Assembly: GCA_964415355.1 (NCBI GenBank)
Contig: CAYPYS010000002.1
Coordinates: 8,048-72,047 of the forward strand
Source: an uncultured Planctomycetia bacterium
GTDB taxonomy: Bacteria > Omnitrophota > Gorgyraeia > Gorgyraeales > Gorgyraeaceae
Direction: 5' to 3'
Length of the DNA: 64,000 nucleotides
The translations under genes were made by a program, and so were the position numbers. The first letter of the stretch is position 1, and each line of letters begins with the position of its first letter. Positions 2,486 through 55,614 of this stretch are shown piece by piece. The notes beneath the pieces are model-generated. The model was given only the letters and a program-made list of their open reading frames with translations, did no database searches and was not told where the DNA came from.

Positions 2486-2585
2486 ATTTAGGAACGAAAA
2501 GGCAAACCACTTGAAAGGGTGGGGCGCAAAATCACAGGCCTAAAGTCAGGACAGACTAAGGTGGCTGGATCGCCGAAACCAAAAA
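2486..2585 (+). promoter_or_regulatory. c-di-GMP-I (GEMM) riboswitch aptamer
   Basis: GGCAAACCACUUGAAAGGGUGGGGCGCAAAAUCACAGGCCUAAAG matches the Vc2 core (GGCAAACC..GAAAG.GUGGGACGCAAAGCC...GGCCUAAAC); GNRA tetraloop hairpin. Confidence 0.7.
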
Positions 2586-34451: not shown

Positions 34452-34545
34452 GCTCCGTAAAAGGGCAACTTATCTGAAAGGGTAAGGCGCAAAGCCAGGT
34501 GCCTAAAGCCGCATGAAGCGGACAAGGTCGACCAGCTGCCGTAGA
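34452..34545 (+). promoter_or_regulatory. c-di-GMP-I (GEMM) riboswitch aptamer no. 2
   Basis: GGGCAACUUAUCUGAAAGGGUAAGGCGCAAAGCCAGGUGCCUAAAGCCGC matches the GEMM core; GNRA hairpin. Confidence 0.7.
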
Positions 34546-45018: not shown

Positions 45019-45444
45019 ATGAGAATCAGGGTATTTTTGTTATTGGCTATGGTTTTGTTTTTGAAAAACCCGGCCTTGGCTGAAGCTGGCGTGGGAGAAA
45101 AGCTGGCCGGCGTGACCATTAAAAGCACGGTTAAGGTATATGTAGCAATAACAAACATTGAAAAGACAAAGAAGAAGATCGTTGATAAGATACAAAAAAC
45201 AGATAAAAAAGAATTCAGGGAACGATATGCCAAGCTTTATGAGCTGGTAAAGGATTTGCCTTCGGATATAAAGACTACTTACAGGATCACCCCTGGCATG
45301 ACCATGGAGCAGATGGTTGAAAATGTAAGATCAGTAGATAAGAAGGCGGTATATAAAATAATAAATAGCATGTCCGATAGAACTGTTACAGAGCTTTTTA
45401 AGCAATATCTTAAGGAGATGGGCAAAAAATCCAAAAAAATGTAA
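45019..45444 (+). CDS. secreted hypothetical protein
   Basis: signal peptide ALA-EA. Confidence 0.4.
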   Translation: MRIRVFLLLAMVLFLKNPALAEAGVGEKLAGVTIKSTVKVYVAITNIEKTKKKIVDKIQKTDKKEFRERYAKLYELVKDLPSDIKTTYRITPGMTMEQMVENVRSVDKKAVYKIINSMSDRTVTELFKQYLKEMGKKSKKM

Positions 45445-45470
45445 ACTATGATTACAATTAAATGCGGAAA

Positions 45471-45510
45471 GTAAAACCTTCACGGCGAAAGCTGTGAGGG
45501 TTTTTTATTT
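45471..45510 (+). terminator. terminator cassette copy 1 (ccttcacggc gaaa gctgtgaggg plus T-run)
   Basis: hairpin with G-U wobbles plus tttttt; near-identical copies at 45972 and (minus strand) 55371. Confidence 0.6.
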
Positions 45511-45567
45511 TTGACCCCGTCGCCATAAATCCTGAGATATTGGCCGATTGGTGATCCCTGCGACTTA

Positions 45568-45596
45568 TTGACTATTTTGAAGACAGGGTGTAGAAT
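45568..45596 (+). promoter_or_regulatory. promoter TTGACT-17-TAGAAT (promoter cassette copy A, 45523-45617)
   Basis: about 95-bp block nearly identical to 47284-47387. Confidence 0.6.
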
Positions 45597-45617
45597 GAAA
45601 TTAAGTGGGAGGTGCAT

Positions 45618-45890
45618 ATGGACTGGAAGATATTTTTGGCAACGTTTAGCGCTATATTTCTTGCAGAACTTGCAGATAAGACACAGTTTGTTGGTATTGG
45701 CATGTCAGCGAAGTCAGGGAAACCTTTATCGGTTTGGCTTGGCTCTATATCCGCGTATATCATTGTTACTGCTATCACGGTTTTGATCGGAGCTACTCTA
45801 GGAAAGTACATAAAACCCGAGATCGTAAGATATACTGGCGCATCGCTATTTGTAATAATCGGAATTTTGATGTTTTTCGGGAAAATATGA
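45618..45890 (+). CDS. UPF0016 (GDT1/TMEM165) family membrane protein, single-repeat form
   Basis: ELADKTQ motif; 3 TM helices; ATG 45618 after GGGAGG. Confidence 0.6.
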   Translation: MDWKIFLATFSAIFLAELADKTQFVGIGMSAKSGKPLSVWLGSISAYIIVTAITVLIGATLGKYIKPEIVRYTGASLFVIIGILMFFGKI

Positions 45891-45971
45891 AACCTTGACA
45901 AACCTGTGATCCCGATGTAAACTATGACTACAATTAAATAATGTCCCGTGTTTGAAGGATGAAATCCCGGA

Positions 45972-46012
45972 CAATAATAAAGTAAAACCTTCACGGCGAA
46001 AGCTGTGAGGGT
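45972..46012 (+). terminator. terminator cassette copy 2
   Basis: same hairpin plus T-run as 45471-45510, preceded by the same gtaaactatgaYtacaattaaat block. Confidence 0.6.
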
Positions 46013-46038
46013 TTTTTGTTTTATATAACTCCGTGCTA

Positions 46039-46139
46039 TTACCTAACAAATATATTAGAAGTACTGTTTGTTAGGTAACTTTCCTTATTGACATTTGTTA
46101 CCTAACAATGTATACTATTTAATAGAGTGTTAGGTAACA
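46039..46139 (+). promoter_or_regulatory. operator array: four TTACCTAACAA half-sites forming two inverted-repeat pairs overlapping promoter TTGACA(46088)-17-TATACT(46111)
   Basis: 46039-46050/46067-46078 and 46097-46108/46128-46139 read directly. Confidence 0.55.
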
Positions 46140-46151
46140 AGGGGGTGCAAT

Positions 46152-46469
46152 ATGGGCGTTATAAAAGGAGCCTTGAAAGAAGAGCTTGAAAATTCTCTGC
46201 GCATGAAGAAGGAATATGAAAAGGCCTTAAAGGAGCTTCCGGATGGATGCTTGGCCGAAAAGAAGATACGCGGCCATAAATATTATTATTTAGTCAAAAG
46301 GTTCCATAAGAAGGTCAAATATATCTATAAAGGTAAGCTTTTAAAGGAAGAGGTCGCTAAATACAACGACGCTAAGATCCTAAGGGCTAAATACAGAAAA
46401 TTGCTGTCGCAGGTTAAAAAGCAGATAAGGTTTTTAAGGAGTAGTCTACGTGGAAAAGAATCAATATAA
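46152..46469 (+). CDS. small basic hypothetical protein (candidate regulator/antitoxin of the downstream nucleotidyltransferase)
   Basis: overlaps downstream gene by 20 nt; strongly regulated promoter. Confidence 0.35.
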   Translation: MGVIKGALKEELENSLRMKKEYEKALKELPDGCLAEKKIRGHKYYYLVKRFHKKVKYIYKGKLLKEEVAKYNDAKILRAKYRKLLSQVKKQIRFLRSSLRGKESI

Positions 46470-47124
46470 ACTATGCCTCGAGGTCCTCAAGCGGTTTAAT
46501 AAAGCAGGTATTCTGGACGGATTCATTTTGATAGGCAGCTGGTGCCTGTATTTTTACAAGGCCTATTTCAAGAAAACCCCATATATAGATGTTTCTACGC
46601 TTAGAACCAGGGATATAGATTTTTTAATACCTATTCCGCCAAAGATTAGGAAAAGCGTTGATGTGCCAGAGCTACTCAAGGATCTTGGATTTGTGACGGA
46701 TTTTAAAGGAAGCAGAGGCTACATAAAGCTCGATCACCCTGACCTTATATTGGAATTTTTAGTACCGGAAAAAGGCAGAGGGGATGACAGGCCTTACAGG
46801 TTGCCACAATTAGGTATGAACGCTACGTCATTAAGGTTTCTAAGTTTTTTAATGGATAACGTTATCCGAATCAAGGTAGAAGATTTTTATATCAATGTAC
46901 CGCATCCCGCGAATTTCGCATTGCATAAACTTATTATTTTTCAGAGGAGAACAAAGGAGTATAAGGTTTTAAAAGATAAAAATACAGCTATTGGAGTTCT
47001 AAGGGCATTGCTCGATAAAGGCGAAGGCCATATAATCAAAAAGACACTGGGATCTGTTCCTCAGAAGTGGAAGAAAAAGATTATCAAAGGATTGGAGGGA
47101 GAGAAAGCGCTTCATATTTTCTAA
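46450..47124 (+). CDS. nucleotidyltransferase-fold protein (AbiEii/MNT-like GS...RxxDIDF motif)
   Basis: LIGSW...TLRTRDIDFLIP. Confidence 0.4.
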   Translation: MEKNQYKLCLEVLKRFNKAGILDGFILIGSWCLYFYKAYFKKTPYIDVSTLRTRDIDFLIPIPPKIRKSVDVPELLKDLGFVTDFKGSRGYIKLDHPDLILEFLVPEKGRGDDRPYRLPQLGMNATSLRFLSFLMDNVIRIKVEDFYINVPHPANFALHKLIIFQRRTKEYKVLKDKNTAIGVLRALLDKGEGHIIKKTLGSVPQKWKKKIIKGLEGEKALHIF

Positions 47125-47220
47125 TCTCATCTCAGTCGTACGTTCGAAGGGGTTCACTGCGACTCTAAACAATTAAAACCTTCTTTTGTCAACCGTACCA
47201 CCAAACAAAAGGAGGTTTTA

Positions 47221-47322
47221 ATGCTTATAGCCAAGGTTTTCCGACTTATCCTGATAACCATAATCTTCATAATAGCTTACCTTCCGATCACTATAAATCC
47301 TGAGATATTGGCCGATTGGTGA
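47221..47322 (+). CDS. 33-aa hydrophobic peptide (MLIAKVFRLILITIIFIIAYLPITINPEILADW), type I toxin-like or leader peptide
   Basis: RBS AGGAGG sequestered in hairpin aaaaccttcttttg..caaaaggaggtttt; paralogue on minus strand at 54869-55030. Confidence 0.35.
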   Translation: MLIAKVFRLILITIIFIIAYLPITINPEILADW

Positions 47323-47335
47323 TCCCTGTGACTTA

Positions 47336-47364
47336 TTGACTATTTTAGAGGATGAGGGTAGAAT
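47336..47364 (+). promoter_or_regulatory. promoter TTGACT-17-TAGAAT (promoter cassette copy B, 47284-47387)
   Basis: near-identical to copy A. Confidence 0.6.
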
Positions 47365-47372
47365 GAAATTAA

Positions 47373-48161
47373 ATGGGCAGCGCATATATGAATAAGAAAC
47401 CATTAAGCAAGATGACTCAAGATGAAATAAAAGAGGCAGTTAAAGAAAAATACAGCAAAGTGGCAAAAGAACCCTGCGTTTCGTTTAACTTCCCGGTAGG
47501 AAAGGCTTTTGCTTTAAAAGTAGGTTATCCTAAAGATATACTTGGCAGACTTCCTCGATCCATGTATGAATCCTTTACAGGCGCCAATAATCCTCAACCT
47601 TTTGTGGAGTTAAAAGAGGGAGAAACAGTCTTAGATTTAGGGTGTGGGGCAGGATTAGACCTTTATTTTTATGCAAAAGCAGTAGGAACTAATGGTAAGG
47701 TCTATGGCTTAGATATTTCGCAAGATATGATCAGTAAGGCAAGAGATAATATGGAAGCAGCAGGAGTTAAGAATGCAGAAATTAAATGCGGCCACTCCGA
47801 TAGCCTTCCTTTTGAAGATAATTTTTTTGATATTGTAGCCTCAAATGGAATCTATAATCTATCACCTAACAAAGAAAAAGTTATGAAAGAAGTATTCAGG
47901 GTATTGAAGCCCGGAGGTAGAACTGTTTTTAGTGAAGTTGTTCTAAAAGACAGCCTCCCGGAAAGCATAAAAAAGAATATTGATGACTGGTTTCGGTGTA
48001 TAGGTGGCGCATTGCCTGAAAGAGATTTTTTAGCACTTATGGAAAAGGTTGGATTTAGGAATATAGAGGTTATATCAAAAGTCAGGAATGCCAGAACAGG
48101 TCATAAGTTAGCCATTTGTGCCAACATCCGCGGTTATAAGGGAGGAGTTTTAAATGGATAA
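47373..48161 (+). CDS. ArsM-like class I SAM-dependent methyltransferase
   Basis: VLDLGCGAGLD motif I; DIVASNGIYNLSPNKEKVMKEVFRVLKPGGR matches the ArsM/UbiE-like core, but the GCGNP Cys motif is replaced (TGANNP); alternative start 47388. Confidence 0.55.
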   Translation: MGSAYMNKKPLSKMTQDEIKEAVKEKYSKVAKEPCVSFNFPVGKAFALKVGYPKDILGRLPRSMYESFTGANNPQPFVELKEGETVLDLGCGAGLDLYFYAKAVGTNGKVYGLDISQDMISKARDNMEAAGVKNAEIKCGHSDSLPFEDNFFDIVASNGIYNLSPNKEKVMKEVFRVLKPGGRTVFSEVVLKDSLPESIKKNIDDWFRCIGGALPERDFLALMEKVGFRNIEVISKVRNARTGHKLAICANIRGYKGGVLNG

Positions 48162-49422: not shown

Positions 49423-49916
49423 ACAGATCGTCATTGCGAGATCAATTGCATTGATCCTGCCAGAGTAACTAATAAAGCAAAAGATTAGTATATAGGGGGA
49501 GATTAAGGTTTGCGTAGAGGGTTTTAGCCATATAAACTTGGTTTCTTTATGATTAAGCCTAACCGCCTATAATGTATCTTATGTTAACTTGGTTATATGA
49601 GAAGAAAAGCCATAAGTCTATATGGCTCAATGAGTTGCGTATTTTTGTTAATTGTCTGTGAATAACTCTTTTTCTTCTTTGGTTGGTATATTGCTTGTCA
49701 TTCCCGCTTACACGGGAATCTTAATAGGTAGGTTATTATTACGCGTGTTTTGGCTTATTATAGCCCTTTATAGACCAGATTATTACTAGGTATAGCCTAA
49801 TTACTGCTTCTCCCCCGCTTGTCATCCTCGCGAAAGCGGGGATCCATTAGAAGCTATATTTTTACCCCTTATAAACCCATCGACCCCTAAAAACCAGTAG
49901 TCGATATAAACCTATA

Positions 49917-50453
49917 TTAATCTAATATCAGACGAAATGATTTTGTTCTCTCAAAAACAGTATTCCTTAGCTCCCTATGAACTCTTTGCAAAATTGGCAA
50001 TAGTCTAATTCTTCTAAAGTTATCCCAATCGTCAAATGTTCGATAATCATTATTAAAAACCATATTGTTTAATTCAGATTGCAATTGGGCGATTAAATCT
50101 ACTATCTCTGTACCATAATACAATCCCATCAGACCAAGCTGTAAATAGCTTTCTCTCGTAGCTCTATTAAAATTATCCAAAGAGACTTGTCTTCTTTGGA
50201 TAATTTCAGGATTATTGTTAGTTATGCTACCCTGTTGTATCTGTAGATTAATATTGGCAAGTTCCCACATCGAAATCAACATGAGACACAGACTATTCAA
50301 AATGTTTGTAGCTGTGTTATCCTTAGCAATAAGGTATTTAGTCTTTATGTCTCTTTCAAAGTGAAATTTGGCAATTTGTATAGTAGTGTAAGCAACAATA
50401 ATAGGCGATATAAGGCCGAATACTATTGTTTTAATAATTGCATCGGAAAACAT
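49917..50453 (-). CDS. hypothetical protein with N-terminal TM helix
   Basis: no recognisable motifs. Confidence 0.35.
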   Translation of the reverse strand: MFSDAIIKTIVFGLISPIIVAYTTIQIAKFHFERDIKTKYLIAKDNTATNILNSLCLMLISMWELANINLQIQQGSITNNNPEIIQRRQVSLDNFNRATRESYLQLGLMGLYYGTEIVDLIAQLQSELNNMVFNNDYRTFDDWDNFRRIRLLPILQRVHRELRNTVFERTKSFRLILD

Positions 50454-50571
50454 AATATCCCTACCAATCCTTTTTTAAATACTTATAGTGTTTGTAATAC
50501 TACCTAACAACCCCGCCCCTATCAACCTCTTCCTTGCTGTAAGCTGTGCTAAAATAAGACACTGCTATCGA

Positions 50572-51420
50572 TCACGCTTTAATATTACTGACCTCCCGAA
50601 CAAGTCTAATCCCAGTATACATTCTATCTAAGAATTGTCTTTCTAGTTTCATTTTCTCATACCTATTCCTTGGATGATGGGAAAGATTACGTACTCCTTT
50701 GTAAGATATTAAATCATTGCATAGCGTAACATCAAAATACTTCTTTTGCTTCTTTCGAGCACCGCCTTTATTCCTCCAATTAGGAGCCGATAACAGCTTA
50801 ATTTTTGTTTCAAAATTGTAATTTTGCACCTCTCCAATTGTCGGCACTATTTTTTTTGCCCTTGCCGCTGCTTCCGCTAATGTATCCACTAATCCTTCTA
50901 TTAGCTCAGTTATATCTCTAATCGCATCGATAAAGTTACCTTCGTTGAATTTTTCGCAAATCTTAACAATGTCTTTCCTGTATCTGCCCGGACGATGCAT
51001 CTCTGCTTCTCCGATTCTCATATTGCATTGCACGGCATTGCGATGCACGATAACGTTATTATCACACACCAATAAGATGCCTAAGCCATATTTCTTGGCT
51101 AACGTTAAAAAGCTATGAGAAAAAGAAGTTTCCTTATCATCTGTAGAATGAGGAAAGGCCAAAAATATTTCAATTCTTTCTTGGTTGATCAAGCATTCCT
51201 TAACAAAAGTCTCAAAATATTCTTGTAATTGTGGTTTTTCTTGTATTTCTATAACTAATACTGCTGAGCCGCGTTTATGACACACTAACGCTGGTTTGAA
51301 TTGATATTGGGGAGCAAGTGGTTTTTCGAATGAAATTCTTCTATAGGTTTTCTTTTCATAATATTTAATGAGCGTCTTAGCAATAGACCAAAGATTCTCG
51401 CTTAAAAATTGAAATTTCAT
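50572..51420 (-). CDS. hypothetical protein (unknown; co-operonic with ParB-like gene)
   Basis: 3-nt gap to upstream gene. Confidence 0.4.
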   Translation of the reverse strand: MKFQFLSENLWSIAKTLIKYYEKKTYRRISFEKPLAPQYQFKPALVCHKRGSAVLVIEIQEKPQLQEYFETFVKECLINQERIEIFLAFPHSTDDKETSFSHSFLTLAKKYGLGILLVCDNNVIVHRNAVQCNMRIGEAEMHRPGRYRKDIVKICEKFNEGNFIDAIRDITELIEGLVDTLAEAAARAKKIVPTIGEVQNYNFETKIKLLSAPNWRNKGGARKKQKKYFDVTLCNDLISYKGVRNLSHHPRNRYEKMKLERQFLDRMYTGIRLVREVSNIKA

Positions 51421-51422
51421 AA

Positions 51423-52364
51423 TTAAATAATTTTAGTTATAATCTTATATAATTCTTTCAGCTTATTTGCAACTTCTTTGTCTTCTTTGATCTTGCTGTC
51501 CATCCTTTTTAATTTATTAACTAGAGACTCTATTTCTTTTTTTAAATTCCTTTCTTGGTAAGCATCGGCGACAGATTCATTGTAAGCATCTTCTATCCTA
51601 TATTTTGGATTGTTTATTAACTTTTTAATTATAGGGATTGCTTTTTTACTTGGAACGCCTGCTTTCTCAGAACGAGCTATTTTGCTAACATCTCTTAATT
51701 TAACAATGTTAGATATTACACCATCTTTATACTTTTTAAAAAATCTTTGCATTATTTTTTCTTTAGAGTTACTTTCTAAAACTTCGGGCATATATCTTTC
51801 TATTGCCCTGCTTGCTTTCATGGCCTCCAAAAAGAAATCCTCCGAAAATTTTTGTTCTGCCTTGGGTTTTGAAAGCTCTTTTCTTAATAGATTTAAATAT
51901 TTCGTGGGCAAACTTAGTATATCAAAAGCTCTTTTTGCAGTTGCGGGAGTAATGCCTGTTACCGCTGTTATGTCTTTCAAAGAATAAGGCTTATTTTCTT
52001 TTTTTAATAAATTCTCTATTTCTTTAAGTTTCAGTGCTGTTGCAAACAAGTCCCATTGAACACGAACATTATGTATATTGAACATTCTTAAAATATTCTC
52101 TAGCCTAGTTGGCCTTGGTTCAATTATGGTAGGAACGCGAGATAAATTTAACTTCTTAGCACACAACCAGCGCCTTTCCCCATCAAGTAATATATACCTA
52201 TTACTTTTAACATCTTCATAAATAGCTAAAGGAACTCTAATGCCTACTTTTTGTATAGAATTTAATAGGACTTGGAGCTCTTCTTCTCTAAAAATTATAC
52301 GTGGATTATCTGGATTTCTCTTGATTTTGTCTGGATTAATATTGGCTAATCTGGTTCCTGACAT
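51423..52364 (-). CDS. ParB/Srx-fold (ParB-like nuclease domain) protein
   Basis: NPDNPR...LLNSIQKVG...RYILLDGERRWLCAKKL...VP ParB N-terminal signature. Confidence 0.6.
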   Translation of the reverse strand: MSGTRLANINPDKIKRNPDNPRIIFREEELQVLLNSIQKVGIRVPLAIYEDVKSNRYILLDGERRWLCAKKLNLSRVPTIIEPRPTRLENILRMFNIHNVRVQWDLFATALKLKEIENLLKKENKPYSLKDITAVTGITPATAKRAFDILSLPTKYLNLLRKELSKPKAEQKFSEDFFLEAMKASRAIERYMPEVLESNSKEKIMQRFFKKYKDGVISNIVKLRDVSKIARSEKAGVPSKKAIPIIKKLINNPKYRIEDAYNESVADAYQERNLKKEIESLVNKLKRMDSKIKEDKEVANKLKELYKIITKII

Positions 52365-52384
52365 AACCTGTCTCCTTATTTAAT

Positions 52385-53191
52385 TTAAAAATTTGTTATT
52401 ACTAATTCTGGGACTTTTTTTCTCTTCTTTACATTCCCTGCTATCAAGCTTCTTCTTTTAACAAGAGTTAAATTGAAATTCTTATACAACCTTCTTATAT
52501 AATCGTGCTCTGCATTGCTCATGATAATCTTGCATCCTTTTTTATCAAGCTCAACAACAGCATCTTTTAAGCGATTTTGATCTTTTAATGAAAATATTCT
52601 CGAATTATATTCTATAAAACCATTATTTTTATGTGAAGTAGTATAGGGAGGGTCTAAATAAATTAAATCACCTTCCGTAGTATCTTTTACTGCTTTTTCA
52701 AAATCAAGACCTCTTATAGTTACATTTTTTAATATCTTACTAACATTTTTTAATTTCTCTTCGTCGCAAATCGTCGGATTATCATATCGGCCTATAGGAA
52801 CATTAAATCTACCTTTGGGATTAACTCTATACAAACCGTTCCAGCATGTTTTATTAAGGTAGATAAATCGGGCAGCCCTTCTTAAATTATTTGACAATCT
52901 CTGTGAACGAATGTTGTAATAGTATTTCTTCTGGTAGGGCATATTTTTTAAAAATTTTATAACTCCGCCAACATTTCTTTTTATTTGTTGATAGCTATTT
53001 ATTAATTCTGAATTTAAGTCTGATAAATATGCTTCTTTAGGTTCTAATGCAAAAAACAAAGCACCACTACCCAAAAAGGGCTCAAAATAGCGGTTGTAAT
53101 TTTTTGGAATAATTTTTAGTAGTTCAGGTAATAGAGCTTTTTTGCCACCTGCCCATTTCAAAAAAGGCCTAGTAGTAACTTTTTTACTCAT
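52385..53191 (-). CDS. Dam-family (alpha-class) N6-adenine DNA methyltransferase
   Basis: FLKWAGGKK...EPFLGSGA motif I; DPPY motif IV. Confidence 0.85.
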   Translation of the reverse strand: MSKKVTTRPFLKWAGGKKALLPELLKIIPKNYNRYFEPFLGSGALFFALEPKEAYLSDLNSELINSYQQIKRNVGGVIKFLKNMPYQKKYYYNIRSQRLSNNLRRAARFIYLNKTCWNGLYRVNPKGRFNVPIGRYDNPTICDEEKLKNVSKILKNVTIRGLDFEKAVKDTTEGDLIYLDPPYTTSHKNNGFIEYNSRIFSLKDQNRLKDAVVELDKKGCKIIMSNAEHDYIRRLYKNFNLTLVKRRSLIAGNVKKRKKVPELVITNF

Positions 53192-53242
53192 TTTTGTTTT
53201 TTTAGTCTATTTTTAAAATAAATAGAGCTATGGTTCCGTCTG

Positions 53243-53878
53243 TTAAGGCTCTACTCCTAAAATTAACAAAGGTACTGGTGGGTTATTACGGCCATGACGT
53301 AGAATATTGTATACTTCTCCTTCATAATAAGCTACGCCACTTGACATCTGAGACTGCATTTTCTTTGTTGGTAGGATTTCAACACCAAGATTTATGACCC
53401 CGCCAGAATAAAAAAGCAAGTGCTTAACAAATAAGTCAAAAGCAACAAAGGCATATTTGCCAAACTGTACTTCTACGGCAACTTGTTTTTTTACAAAATC
53501 AGTTTGCTTATATGATGCAATTGGGTGCTTAGTACCGTTTTTAATCAGAAATTCTTTCTGTTTTTTGTAAGATAAAGGAACTAATTCTTGCATTATTTTA
53601 TAATCGGTTGTTACATAGTACTGATAGCGACTTTCTTTCCACCCATGAGTTCTAAATTTATTCCTGAATTTTTCATTAAGCGCTATAGGGCTATATAGAG
53701 GCTTGCCTTTCATGGTTTTCTCTTTGCTGATCTTTGTCATTAGCTTTTTAGCGTCTATGCTGTTTATGGTTTTGATAATCTCATTATACAAACTCTTGTG
53801 ATGGACTATTAAATACTCTTCTCCGTTTAGGTGGGAATGTTTCTGTGCTATACGCATACATAGGCTCCTTTCATCCAC
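53243..53878 (-). CDS. putative type II restriction endonuclease (BglII/BamHI-like arrangement EVQFGK..LGVEILP)
   Basis: position between two MTases; E-x-Q / hydrophobic pattern similar to the BamHI E111-E113 region. Confidence 0.4.
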   Translation of the reverse strand: MDERSLCMRIAQKHSHLNGEEYLIVHHKSLYNEIIKTINSIDAKKLMTKISKEKTMKGKPLYSPIALNEKFRNKFRTHGWKESRYQYYVTTDYKIMQELVPLSYKKQKEFLIKNGTKHPIASYKQTDFVKKQVAVEVQFGKYAFVAFDLFVKHLLFYSGGVINLGVEILPTKKMQSQMSSGVAYYEGEVYNILRHGRNNPPVPLLILGVEP

Positions 53879-54852
53879 TCTTTAGGAATTCTGGCCATTT
53901 TGTCATTAGGAGAAGGATTGTGTATGGGTTTATTGATAGGCCGAAGCTTTAGTTTATTGTTTTTTAACATTAATAAGCGTTTTTTGGCGGTTTCTATATA
54001 TTTTTTGTTGCTGTCTATTCCTATAGCATTTCTGTTGTTTTTCATAGCTGCGATTAATGTCGAGCCAACACCTGCATATGGATCTAATACCCAGCTGCCT
54101 TCTTTTGTTAAAGCGAGGATGCACCGTTCTACAAGTTCGACAGGAAATTGACAAGGATGAGTAGTTTTTTCAGGATGGTTTGCTTTAACATTTGGTATGT
54201 TCCAAAAGCCTTTTTCCCAATCTTTGCTTAAAATCTCCCATACATCAGAAGGATTTTTTCCATTAGGATTTCCAGAAAGCTTTCCTCTCTTGGGGCCCTT
54301 GAAATGTTTTTTTCCAGGATATTTTGCAGGTATACGTACATTATCTAAATTGAAAATATAGTCATTTGATTTAGAAAACCATAGGATTGTTTCGTACCTG
54401 CCTGAGAATCTCTTGGATGCATGTAGTCCGTGCCCAAAATGCCAAATTAATCTATTTCTAAGTTTTAAGCCGTGTTTTTTAAATATATTATAATAAAAAA
54501 TATCAAGTGGGAATATCTCTCCTTTATTAACGTAATTGCCTATTTGCCAACAAATACTGCCTCTTTTAGACGTTAACTTAACAAGCTGCTCGATGACTCT
54601 ACCTTGTTTATCTAAATACCGCTCTATTGATTCTTTATTTTCGTATTCCTTCCCTAGGTTATAAGGGGGAGAAGTAATTATTAGATCGAATTTTCCTTTA
54701 TCTAGTTTCTCTAAATTTCTGAGAGTGTCTCCTAGTATAAGCTTGGTCTCTGTATTTTTATACATATTGTTTATTTTAGTTAAATTAGAGCTCGCCATTT
54801 TCTTGGATTCTCCTGCTGAAGCTTGCCCAAAAAGATCATTAATTAATGTCAT
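53848..54852 (-). CDS. beta-class N6-adenine/N4-cytosine DNA methyltransferase
   Basis: SPPY motif IV near N-terminus; DPYAGVGST motif I near C-terminus; start set at second Met after AGGAGG. Confidence 0.75.
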   Translation of the reverse strand: MTLINDLFGQASAGESKKMASSNLTKINNMYKNTETKLILGDTLRNLEKLDKGKFDLIITSPPYNLGKEYENKESIERYLDKQGRVIEQLVKLTSKRGSICWQIGNYVNKGEIFPLDIFYYNIFKKHGLKLRNRLIWHFGHGLHASKRFSGRYETILWFSKSNDYIFNLDNVRIPAKYPGKKHFKGPKRGKLSGNPNGKNPSDVWEILSKDWEKGFWNIPNVKANHPEKTTHPCQFPVELVERCILALTKEGSWVLDPYAGVGSTLIAAMKNNRNAIGIDSNKKYIETAKKRLLMLKNNKLKLRPINKPIHNPSPNDKMARIPKEWMKGAYVCV

Positions 54853-54868
54853 TTTACACCTCCTTAGG

Positions 54869-55030
54869 TTAATAGTCAATAGCGCTGACTATATTATCTA
54901 ATTCTATATAATAGGACATACTATCTCTTGGGTTTCTTTCAAATGTTTTTGGATTTATTGTTATAGGCAGGTAGGTGATTATAAAGATAGCTGTTATTAG
55001 GATGCTTTTAATAAACTTGGTTAGAAACAC
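54869..55030 (-). CDS. 53-aa hydrophobic peptide (VFLTKFIKSILITAIFIITYLPITINPKTF...), paralogue of 47221-47322
   Basis: GTG start after AGGAGG inside hairpin aaaaccttctttac..gtaaaggaggtttt; shares LIT-IIFII-YLPITINP. Confidence 0.3.
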   Translation of the reverse strand: MFLTKFIKSILITAIFIITYLPITINPKTFERNPRDSMSYYIELDNIVSAIDY

Positions 55031-55223
55031 AAAAACCTCCTTTACGGTTATGTAAAGAAGGTTTTAATTATTTTATAGTCGCAGTTCCCCCTTCCTTAAC
55101 GTACGACTTGAGGATTTTCTTCTCAGGCATATATTGAAGACTAAAGCCACAGGCATCCTGCAAGGGTACGCACTACTATAAGTTGCACCAAAATAGGACG
55201 CCTGCTATTCCGCGTTCTATTGC

Positions 55224-55346
55224 TTATGCTTTTTTGATTCTTTCAACAACAGCGGTTCTTTTCTGCCTTCTCGCTCTTGCTACAGGAATAAATCTACCTG
55301 TTATAGCGCTTCTTCCAGCCAGCCTTGTTTTACTTTTCTTGCTCAT
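55224..55346 (-). CDS. 40-aa basic peptide MSKKSKTRLAGRSAITGRFIPVARARRQKRTAVVERIKKA (speculative)
   Basis: RBS gaaaggaggtgg; directly follows terminator cassette copy 3. Confidence 0.25.
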   Translation of the reverse strand: MSKKSKTRLAGRSAITGRFIPVARARRQKRTAVVERIKKA

Positions 55347-55370
55347 TGCAATCCACCTCCTTTCTCAAAA

Positions 55371-55410
55371 AACAGAAAAACCCTCACAGCTTTCGCCATG
55401 AAGGTTTTAC
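55371..55410 (-). terminator. terminator cassette copy 3 (minus strand)
   Basis: reverse complement = gtaaaaccttcatggcgaaagctgtgagggtttttctgtttttt. Confidence 0.45.
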
Positions 55411-55614
55411 TTTTTTAACGTCCGGGATTTACCCCTTCTTAACTCGGGACTTTATTTGATTATACTTATATTTTACATGCCAGGGGTGGGTTTGTCAAGG
55501 ATTTGCACTCTCGTTAACTCATTTGCAAATCACTTTTTAACCCCGTCTGCCCTCGCCTACCCTTTTCTCTCTATCTAAGACACTGCATCATCGAAGCCTT
55601 AAAGCTTTTCCTCG

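What the first reader, a model, noticed from the sequence alone, without database searches (positions are those of the whole stretch)
45523..47387. Portable about 100-bp promoter cassette duplicated in front of two unrelated genes
45523-45617 and 47284-47387 are nearly identical (aaatcctgagatattggccgattggtgatccctgYgacttaTTGACTattttRRaGRNNAGGGTRTAGAATgaaattaaRtgggNRgYgcatATG). They drive a UPF0016 transporter gene and an ArsM-like methyltransferase respectively. Conservation extends well beyond the -35/-10 hexamers, which suggests either a shared regulator site or recent module shuffling. Copy A is a truncated version that starts inside the 3' end of the hydrophobic-peptide ORF.
Basis: seen in the sequence. 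Interest (0 to 1): 0.6.

Follow-up and report, generated by a model that had tools for sequence, protein, structure and literature searches.

The report
Duplicated promoter region before two genes
A roughly 100-base promoter region is present twice, 1.8 kb apart, in an uncultured Omnitrophota bacterium because a local rearrangement copied the promoter of one operon; this is an ordinary case of promoter reuse, not a new kind of element.

Summary
The repeat is real. 45520-45619 and 47288-47387 match at 86/100 positions without gaps, including a 36-nt identical run, and each copy ends at a start codon (GDT1/UPF0016 half-transporter; ArsM-like methyltransferase). Each copy carries TTGACT-17-TAGAAT.

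The nearest relative found (L013/L022) has this promoter once, at the position that corresponds to copy A, driving a YgaP-like/ArsM-like operon. It lacks the GDT1 gene, the toxin-antitoxin-like pair and the peptide ORF.

The 30 nt at the start of the conserved stretch upstream of the -35 box are the last nine codons plus stop of a 33-aa hydrophobic-peptide gene. That gene is intact at copy B and truncated at copy A. The stretch has no dyad symmetry, no RNA structure and no counterpart in the relative's promoter, so a shared regulator site is not supported.

The pair meets the published operational definition of a "putative mobile promoter" doublet.

The more interesting observation is larger. 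An sRNA-like unit, a hairpin, an SD-sequestering hairpin, a hydrophobic-peptide ORF and a promoter-like site together recur, in whole or part, before three operons in this window. The function of this composite is unknown.

Promoter activity and co-regulation are inferred, not shown.

The parts
45520..45619 (+). Copy A of the duplicated promoter region: peptide-ORF 3' remnant 45525-45554, 8-mer CTGCGACT 45558-45565, -35 TTGACT 45568-45573, -10 TAGAAT 45591-45596, SD GGGAGG 45607-45612, ending at the GDT1 ATG (45618)
47288..47387 (+). Copy B: last 9 codons plus stop of the intact peptide ORF 47293-47322, 8-mer CTGTGACT 47326-47333, -35 TTGACT 47336-47341, -10 TAGAAT 47359-47364, degraded SD, then ATG at 47373 or 47388 of the ArsM-like gene
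45618..45890 (+). GDT1/UPF0016 half-size (90 aa) membrane protein gene, downstream of copy A
   Evidence: PF01169, E = 2.8e-22; 80-92% identical 90-aa homologs in Omnitrophota
47388..48161 (+). ArsM-like SAM methyltransferase, downstream of copy B (alternative start at 47373); two cysteines conserved in a solved ArsM are replaced
47221..47322 (+). 33-aa hydrophobic peptide ORF (MLIAKVFRLILITIIFIIAYLPITINPEILADW); its 3' end forms the upstream part of copy B
   Evidence: 9 synonymous vs 2 non-synonymous codon differences against the paralog, codons 10-27
47134..47222 (+). Leader of the peptide ORF: hairpin P1' 47134-47164 (AGTCGTA...TGCGACT) and an 18-bp hairpin 47172-47222 that sequesters the SD and start codon
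   Evidence: I4; z = -4.2
45439..45511 (+). Truncated sRNA-like unit (-35 and hairpin P1 deleted) that keeps an intrinsic terminator at 45473-45504; it shields copy A from upstream transcription and is the ortholog of the relative's sRNA-like unit
45893..46022 (+). Complete sRNA-like unit 2: TTGACA-17-TAAACT promoter, hairpin P1, terminator 45984-46015
46152..47124 (+). Putative toxin-antitoxin-like pair (105 aa plus NTP_transf_8 224 aa) with its own promoter at 46088-46116 and operator-like palindromes; it lies between the two promoter copies and is absent from the relative
   Evidence: (I3)
54851..55503 (-). Third, older copy of the composite module: sRNA-like unit 55503-55369, 40-aa ORF 55346-55224, P1' 55108-55077, SD hairpin 55065-55032, 53-aa peptide ORF 55030-54869, TTGACT-17-TAAAAT 54879-54851, then the DNA methyltransferase of a restriction-modification operon

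Best explanation
The two copies are paralogs of one lineage-specific sigma-70-type promoter region (TTGACT, 17 bp, TAGAAT, then a short 5' UTR). A local segmental duplication or recombination created the second copy. In the nearest relative the promoter exists once, after the 142-aa gene and an sRNA-like unit, and drives a YgaP-like/ArsM-like operon. In this genome a GDT1 gene, a second sRNA-like unit and a toxin-antitoxin-like pair lie between that position and the ArsM-like operon. The promoter, together with the last nine codons of an adjacent small hydrophobic-peptide gene, now stands before both GDT1 (copy A) and the ArsM-like gene (copy B). Copy A is probably the only promoter for GDT1, because a strong terminator lies 60 nt upstream of its -35 box. 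Copy B probably adds to read-through from the toxin-antitoxin operon. The extended identity upstream of the -35 box reflects shared descent, since it begins with the peptide gene's 3' end; it is not an operator. Shown here: the repeat, its boundaries, the single copy in the relative, and the peptide-ORF origin of the upstream block. Inferred: promoter activity, the direction and mechanism of the duplication, and any co-regulation.
For: The repeat is real and unique to these two sites in the window. Both copies score 10/12 to the consensus with a 17-nt spacer. The relative L013/L022 has CTGCGACTTATTGACTATTTTGAAGGAGGGGTGTAGAAT once, at the position of copy A, directly after the orthologous sRNA-like unit and upstream of YgaP-like plus an ArsM-like gene 90% identical in protein. 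It has no GDT1, no toxin-antitoxin pair and no peptide ORF. The hexamers and the 17-nt spacing are kept in all three promoters while the spacer varies: A differs from the relative at 3/12 positions, B from the relative at 5/12, and A from B at 7/12 (read). A terminator lies just upstream of copy A. The upstream block is the peptide ORF's 3' end in B and a frame remnant without a start codon in A. The peptide ORF is under purifying selection relative to its paralog. The pair fits the published criteria for promoter doublets, which that paper attributes to duplication by recombination (PMC3488235).
Against: Mismatches are not evenly spread. The 54 nt upstream have 1 mismatch while the 12-nt spacer has 7 (permutation p about 0.005-0.015). 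Simple neutral divergence after one duplication does not predict this, so selection on the upstream block, gene conversion, or post-duplication tuning of the spacer and SD must be invoked. The two copies share a 5' UTR that the relative lacks, so the order of events is unresolved. No transcription data are available. Only one relative genome carries the promoter. The rest of this organism's genome could not be searched.
Confidence: 0.7

Rival explanations
1. Shared regulator site: the perfectly conserved block upstream of the -35 box (45525-45565 and 47293-47333) binds one transcription factor that co-regulates GDT1 and the ArsM-like operon.
For: The block is identical in copy A although it is non-coding there, while the adjacent spacer has diverged strongly. 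GDT1 and ArsM-type genes are operon partners in other Omnitrophota contigs (L024, L026), so co-regulation would make biological sense.
Against: The block has no inverted repeat. It is absent from the orthologous promoter in the relative, where an unrelated hairpin sequence occupies that position. It does not recur elsewhere in the window. No regulator gene such as ArsR lies nearby. In copy B its first 30 nt are coding sequence.
Confidence: 0.13
2. Small non-autonomous mobile element: the 161-nt segment at 47165-47325 (SD hairpin, peptide ORF and upstream block) inserted next to the promoter with an 8-bp target duplication, and spreads by carrying or abutting an outward promoter.
For: CTGCGACT (47157-47164) and CTGTGACT (47326-47333) flank the segment. 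The relative has a single CTGCGACT and no segment, which looks like an empty site. Region C has the same layout.
Against: There are no terminal inverted repeats and no transposase nearby. Only two to three copies exist. The segment's left part continues an architecture (hairpin, linker, second hairpin) that it shares with the sRNA-like unit across the supposed insertion boundary, so a microhomology-mediated deletion in the relative explains the 'empty site' equally well. No matches were found in viral, phage or plasmid collections or in other genomes.
Confidence: 0.1
3. Cis-regulatory RNA (riboswitch or leader) shared by both mRNAs.
For: About 100 nt are conserved upstream of the start codons. 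The window contains three c-di-GMP-I riboswitches elsewhere.
Against: No Rfam match was found even at E up to 10. The predicted folds are no better than shuffled sequence (z = +0.68 and +1.32). If the promoter is real, the transcribed leader is only about 10-25 nt.
Confidence: 0.02

Closest known systems
Putative mobile promoters (PMPs), or promoter propagation in prokaryotes (Matus-Garcia, Nijveen, van Passel 2012, PMC3488235)
   Same: Two upstream regions align over more than 50 nt at 80% identity or better, right up to the start codons, while the upstream and downstream coding sequences are not homologous. It is a doublet, the commonest family size reported, which that paper attributes to duplication by homologous or non-homologous recombination.
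   Different: Here the origin can be traced: a relative keeps the single ancestral copy. Part of the 'promoter' is the 3' end of an unannotated small protein gene. The two copies are only 1.8 kb apart and flank the inserted DNA, so this looks like one local rearrangement rather than mobility.
Promoter duplication when an operon is split by inserted genes (general knowledge of operon evolution)
   Same: A terminator-bounded insertion lies between a promoter and its original operon, and both resulting units carry a copy of the promoter.
   Different: The gene now behind the ancestral-position copy (GDT1) is the newcomer. The mechanism (tandem duplication, Campbell-type integration or gene conversion) could not be resolved.
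Type I toxin-antitoxin loci (only for the neighbouring hydrophobic-peptide unit; a resemblance, not a filing)
   Same: A 33-53-aa peptide with a single hydrophobic stretch, its Shine-Dalgarno sequence and start codon buried in a stable hairpin, paralogous copies, a small terminator-ended transcription unit nearby, and a location in an island with toxin-antitoxin and restriction-modification genes.
   Different: The nearby sRNA-like unit is similar in sequence to the peptide leader rather than complementary to it. No convincing antisense promoter was established. Toxicity is untested. No homologs exist in databases.

Membership tests
Putative mobile promoter doublet (PMC3488235) | Upstream regions align over more than 50 nt at 80% identity or better, within about 150 nt of the start codon | tested here: met
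   100 nt at 86% identity, ending at the ATG
Putative mobile promoter doublet (PMC3488235) | Downstream coding sequences are not homologous | tested here: met
   GDT1 (PF01169) versus a SAM methyltransferase (PF13847); similarity stops at the start codons
Putative mobile promoter doublet (PMC3488235) | Upstream coding sequences are not homologous | tested here: met
   The 141-aa protein versus the NTP_transf_8 protein. Caveat: the repeat itself includes the 3' end of an unannotated 33-aa ORF
Putative mobile promoter doublet (PMC3488235) | Not explained by an IS end or a known riboswitch | tested here: inconclusive
   No Rfam match, no inverted repeats, no phage or plasmid matches. ISfinder was not available
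Sigma-70-type promoter | -35 and -10 hexamers close to TTGACA/TATAAT with 16-18 bp spacing | tested here: met
   TTGACT-17-TAGAAT, 10/12, in both copies. The same hexamers and spacing occur in the relative
Sigma-70-type promoter | An experimentally mapped transcription start downstream of the -10 box | not testable with these tools
   No transcript data available
Riboswitch or structured cis-regulatory RNA | A conserved secondary structure more stable than chance, or a match to a curated family | tested here: not met
   z = +0.68 and +1.32; no Rfam match at E up to 10
MITE or IS-derived element | Terminal inverted repeats | tested here: not met
   None in the module and none at the ends of the 161-nt peptide segment (by inspection)
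MITE or IS-derived element | Target-site duplication with an empty site in a relative | tested here: inconclusive
   8-nt CTGCGACT/CTGTGACT flank the peptide segment and the relative has one copy. This is equally compatible with a microhomology deletion
MITE or IS-derived element | Many dispersed copies | tested here: not met
   Two copies in 64 kb. The peptide-block core has no match in 185,579 genomes, in the metagenome set (that set lacks even this organism's own contigs, so it says little) or among the other loci held. The promoter 21-mer has one genome match, none viral
Type I toxin-antitoxin (neighbouring peptide unit) | A small hydrophobic peptide under 60 aa with an occluded ribosome-binding site | tested here: met
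   33 and 53 aa; 14-18-bp hairpins cover the SD and start codon
Type I toxin-antitoxin (neighbouring peptide unit) | An antitoxin RNA complementary to the toxin mRNA | tested here: inconclusive
   The adjacent sRNA-like unit has the same sense and a similar, not complementary, sequence. Only weak antisense promoter-like sites are present

The most novel reading that the evidence does not exclude
The duplicated promoter may be only the tail of a larger, so far undescribed composite 5' module of this Omnitrophota lineage. The module consists of a promoter plus hairpin plus terminator ('sRNA-like unit'), a second related hairpin, an SD-sequestering hairpin, a conserved hydrophobic-peptide ORF and a promoter-like site. 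It occurs in whole or part in front of three different operons in this window (GDT1, ArsM-like, restriction-modification) and partly in the relative. It could be a new portable regulatory or toxin-like cassette, for example a type-I-toxin-like peptide or a leader-peptide/attenuator system, that supplies expression signals to accessory operons.
Probability: 0.15. Interest if true: 0.6.

Novelty: new member of a known kind. Interest (0 to 1): 0.3.

Why it matters
On its own this is a traceable example of promoter reuse. A relative preserves the single-copy state, so one can see how a newly placed gene (GDT1) and a displaced operon (ArsM-like) each end up with the same expression signals. It would matter more if the two genes prove to be co-regulated, because GDT1 half-proteins recur next to arsenic-type genes in Omnitrophota. 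It would also matter more if the surrounding composite module proves to be a functional cassette, since almost nothing is known about gene regulation in this uncultured phylum.

Tried and rejected
1. Rfam gathering and E-value scans of the window, region C and the relative's locus found no family for the module, the sRNA-like unit or the leader.

2. Folding of both module copies gave nothing better than shuffled sequence.

3. Exact-pattern scans gave little. The 22-nt peptide-block core had 0 matches in genome contigs and metagenome contigs. The metagenome collection evidently lacks this organism's contigs, since the core is present in the loci already fetched.

4. The sRNA terminator pattern in metagenome contigs gave one chance hit inside a response-regulator gene (L021).

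5. The promoter and sRNA patterns had 0 matches in viral contigs.

6. blastn searches, of copy A with the truncated sRNA unit (45439-45640) against plasmids and of the copy B locus (47125-47400) against phages, gave no match.

7. A homology search with the 53-aa peptide found only itself.

8. Other ArsM-like neighbours (L015, L017, L018, L019) have unrelated upstream regions.

9. Upstream regions of GDT1 homologs (L024, L025, L026, L030) show no similarity to the module; similarity starts at the ATG.

10. A search for a dyad or operator in the module found none.

11. A consensus fold of the sRNA-like and leader units gave weak, alignment-dependent support only, so no RNA-family claim is made.

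12. MAFFT aligned the relative's P1' hairpin against the copy A/B upstream block. By my count that is about 33% identity, which is chance level, so I rejected homology between them.
Full report
**Observation.** The window holds a direct repeat, 45520-45619 and 47288-47387. It is 100 nt long and 86% identical without gaps. Its 34-nt and 22-nt cores occur exactly twice in the 64-kb window at up to 3 mismatches, and never in shuffled sequence. Copy A ends at the ATG (45618) of a 90-aa GDT1/UPF0016 half-size protein (PF01169, E = 2.8e-22). Copy B ends, with 2 extra bases, at the ATG (47388; alternative start 47373) of an ArsM-like SAM methyltransferase. The same arrangement is base-identical in more than ten independent metagenome assemblies, so it is genuine.

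**Anatomy.** Each copy contains TTGACT, a 17-nt spacer and TAGAAT (10/12 to consensus), followed by a short leader. The leader in copy A has a good Shine-Dalgarno sequence (GGGAGG); in copy B it is degraded (GGGCAG). The 14 mismatches are clustered: 7 lie in the 12-nt spacer and 4 in the SD region, while 45525-45578 has 1 mismatch in 54 nt, including a 36-nt identical run (permutation p = 0.005-0.015). The module has no dyad symmetry. Its predicted RNA folds are no better than shuffles (z = +0.68 and +1.32). It has no Rfam match even at E up to 10. A strong intrinsic terminator (45473-45504) lies 60 nt upstream of copy A's -35 box, so copy A is the only plausible promoter for GDT1. No canonical terminator separates the upstream operon from copy B.

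**What the conserved upstream block is.** In copy B, 47293-47322 are the last nine codons plus stop of a 33-aa hydrophobic-peptide ORF (47221-47322). In copy A the same 30 nt are a frame remnant with an upstream stop codon and no start codon. A paralog of the peptide ORF (53 aa; 55030-54869, minus strand) lies in front of a restriction-modification operon. Across codons 10-27 the two ORFs differ by 9 synonymous and 2 non-synonymous codon changes. This argues that the peptide is a real, selected small protein.

**Comparative evidence.** The ArsM-like protein is about 80% conserved across Candidatus Omnitrophota MAGs, which places the organism in that phylum. The closest relative recovered is L013. 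Its sequence is identical to L022 (GTDB genome contig CAYULJ010000002.1) where the two were compared, and its ArsM-like protein is 90% identical to the window's. The relative keeps the flanking 77-aa and 142-aa genes. After them comes an sRNA-like unit (TTGACG-17-TAAACT, hairpin, terminator), then a hairpin AGTCGTATGTTCGAAGGGGCTCACTGCGACT, then immediately TTGACT-17-TAGAAT, a 75-nt leader, a 60-aa YgaP-like gene and the ArsM-like gene.

The relative thus has one promoter copy. It lies at the position of copy A, and its spacer is closer to A's (3/12 differences) than to B's (5/12). It has no GDT1 gene, no toxin-antitoxin-like pair and no peptide ORF. The truncated sRNA-like unit before copy A is the ortholog of the relative's unit, with two clean deletions of 52 and 35 nt. 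A scan of 185,579 species-representative genomes with a 21-mer covering the -35 region found only this relative, once. The peptide-block core was found in none. Viral, phage and plasmid collections gave nothing.

**Interpretation.** The simplest reading is a local segmental duplication or recombination in this lineage. It left the native promoter of the ArsM-like operon in two copies flanking newly placed DNA: GDT1, a second sRNA-like unit and a toxin-antitoxin-like pair with its own promoter and operator-like palindromes. The hexamers and the 17-nt spacing are preserved in three promoters while the spacer varies, which is the pattern expected for a functional promoter.

The upstream block does not behave like an operator. 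It is missing from the relative's orthologous promoter, where an unrelated hairpin sequence sits (the MAFFT pairing of the two is about 33% identical by my count, which is chance level). It is not A/T-rich. In copy B its first 30 nt are coding.

The uneven spread of mismatches is not fully explained. Recent gene conversion of the upstream part, or tuning of the spacer and SD after duplication, are both possible. The order of events also remains open, because copies A and B share a leader that the relative lacks.

**Are the two genes unrelated?** Not obviously. The 90-aa GDT1 protein is a conserved Omnitrophota gene (80-92% identity, always 90 aa). In L024 it closes an operon of ArsP_1 permease, a canonical ArsM-type methyltransferase, thioredoxin and DsbD. 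In L026 it sits between an SBF/Acr3-type transporter and the N-terminus of what looks like a canonical ArsM (Cys-rich, truncated ORF, judged by eye). In L025 its neighbours are unrelated. The window's ArsM-like protein is a different paralog, 31% identical to the L024 enzyme. It has Ala and Gly where a solved ArsM has the cysteines of its GCGNP and SNC motifs. From my own knowledge these are arsenic-binding residues, so canonical arsenite methylation is doubtful.

**The larger picture.** The promoter copies are the 3' tails of a composite repeat. The composite consists of:
- an sRNA-like unit (complete at 45893-46022 and 55503-55369, truncated at 45439-45511, and two more copies in the relative);
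- a related hairpin, P1';
- a 14-18-bp hairpin that buries the SD and start codon of the peptide ORF;
- the peptide ORF;
- a TTGACT-17-TA..AT site.

In region C that last site overlaps the methyltransferase start codon. There the downstream operon must be transcribed from further upstream.

The 161 nt between P1' and the promoter in copy B are flanked by CTGCGACT and CTGTGACT, and the relative has a single CTGCGACT. This fits either an insertion with target duplication or a microhomology deletion in the relative. I favour the deletion, because the hairpin-linker-hairpin architecture is continuous across the boundary and is shared with the sRNA-like unit. No known RNA family matches these units, and the peptide has no database homologs. 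Their function is unknown. A type-I-toxin-like or leader-peptide role is a lead, not a finding.

**Comparison with known systems and verdict.** The pair satisfies the operational definition of a putative mobile promoter doublet: more than 50 nt at 80% identity or better upstream of non-homologous genes (PMC3488235). That study found thousands of such families, mostly doublets, and attributed them to recombination. This is therefore a new member of a known kind, with the added value that the ancestral single-copy state is visible in a relative. Promoter activity and co-regulation are inferred only. I score interest at 0.3. The composite module around the promoter is the part that deserves follow-up.

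Noticed in passing
window 45893-46022 (+), 55503-55369 (-), truncated 45439-45511 (+); L013 2102-2235 and 5890-5972: A repeated sRNA-like transcription unit: TTGACA-17-TAAA(C/A)T promoter, a hairpin with the conserved loop GTT.GAAGG.G, and a 14-bp intrinsic terminator. It has no Rfam family. It sits at the 5' side of accessory operons, so it could be an sRNA gene or a transcription attenuator.
   Followed up: partly
window 47134-47322 (+) and 55108-54869 (-): Paralogous leader plus hydrophobic-peptide genes (33 and 53 aa; shared core ILIT.IFII.YLPITINP). Their SD and start codon are buried in a stable hairpin. Codon differences are mostly synonymous (9 vs 2 in codons 10-27). No homologs were found in a 5.8-billion-protein database.
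   Followed up: partly
window 47157-47164 and 47326-47333; L013 2269-2276: 8-nt direct repeats CTGCGACT/CTGTGACT flank the 161-nt hairpin-plus-peptide segment, while the relative has a single copy and no segment. This is either an insertion with target duplication or a microhomology deletion.
   Followed up: partly
window 2491-2577 (+), 34454-34543 (+), 18859-18722 (-): Three c-di-GMP-I riboswitch aptamers above the Rfam gathering score (73, 62.5 and 54.4 bits).
   Followed up: no
window 46040-46140 and 46152-47124: A two-gene toxin-antitoxin-like operon (105 aa plus NTP_transf_8 224 aa). It is preceded by a strong promoter (46088-46116) embedded in repeated TTGTTACCTAACAA palindromes, which look like an autoregulatory operator.
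   Followed up: no
window 47388-48161: The 'ArsM-like' methyltransferase has Ala and Gly where a solved ArsM has the cysteines of its GCGNP and SNC motifs. It scores below the NCBIfam ArsM cut-offs, yet it is about 80% conserved across Omnitrophota, so it is probably not a canonical arsenite methyltransferase.
   Followed up: partly
window about 49900-54880 (-): A low-GC island (0.32-0.34 vs about 0.43). It carries two unknown genes, a ParB_N protein, a D12-class methyltransferase, a BglII-like endonuclease and an N4/N6 methyltransferase, i.e. a restriction-modification island. It converges on the ArsM-like operon.
   Followed up: no
L024 249-3773; L026 599-2172: The 90-aa GDT1 half-protein of Omnitrophota recurs beside arsenic-type genes: ArsP_1, canonical ArsM, thioredoxin and DsbD in L024; an SBF/Acr3-like transporter and the N-terminus of what looks like a canonical ArsM (judged by eye) in L026. 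This hints at a role in metalloid handling rather than in Mn/Ca transport alone.
   Followed up: partly
window 55346-55224 (-): A 40-aa highly basic ORF (MSKKSKTRLAGRSAITGRFIPVARARRQKRTAVVERIKKA) with a good SD, immediately after the terminator of sRNA-like unit 3. It has no Pfam match.
   Followed up: no
window about 55662-55613 (-): A long near-perfect hairpin (CCCTGTAGTGTTTCGGAGG...CCTCCGAAACACTACAGGG) upstream of sRNA-like unit 3. It matched only microRNA models at chance level.
   Followed up: no
L013 2321-2346: The relative's leader between the promoter and the YgaP-like gene contains a perfect 11-bp palindrome (GGTACTCAGAT TATT ATCTGAGTACC-like). It is a candidate operator or RNA hairpin and is absent from both window copies.
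   Followed up: no
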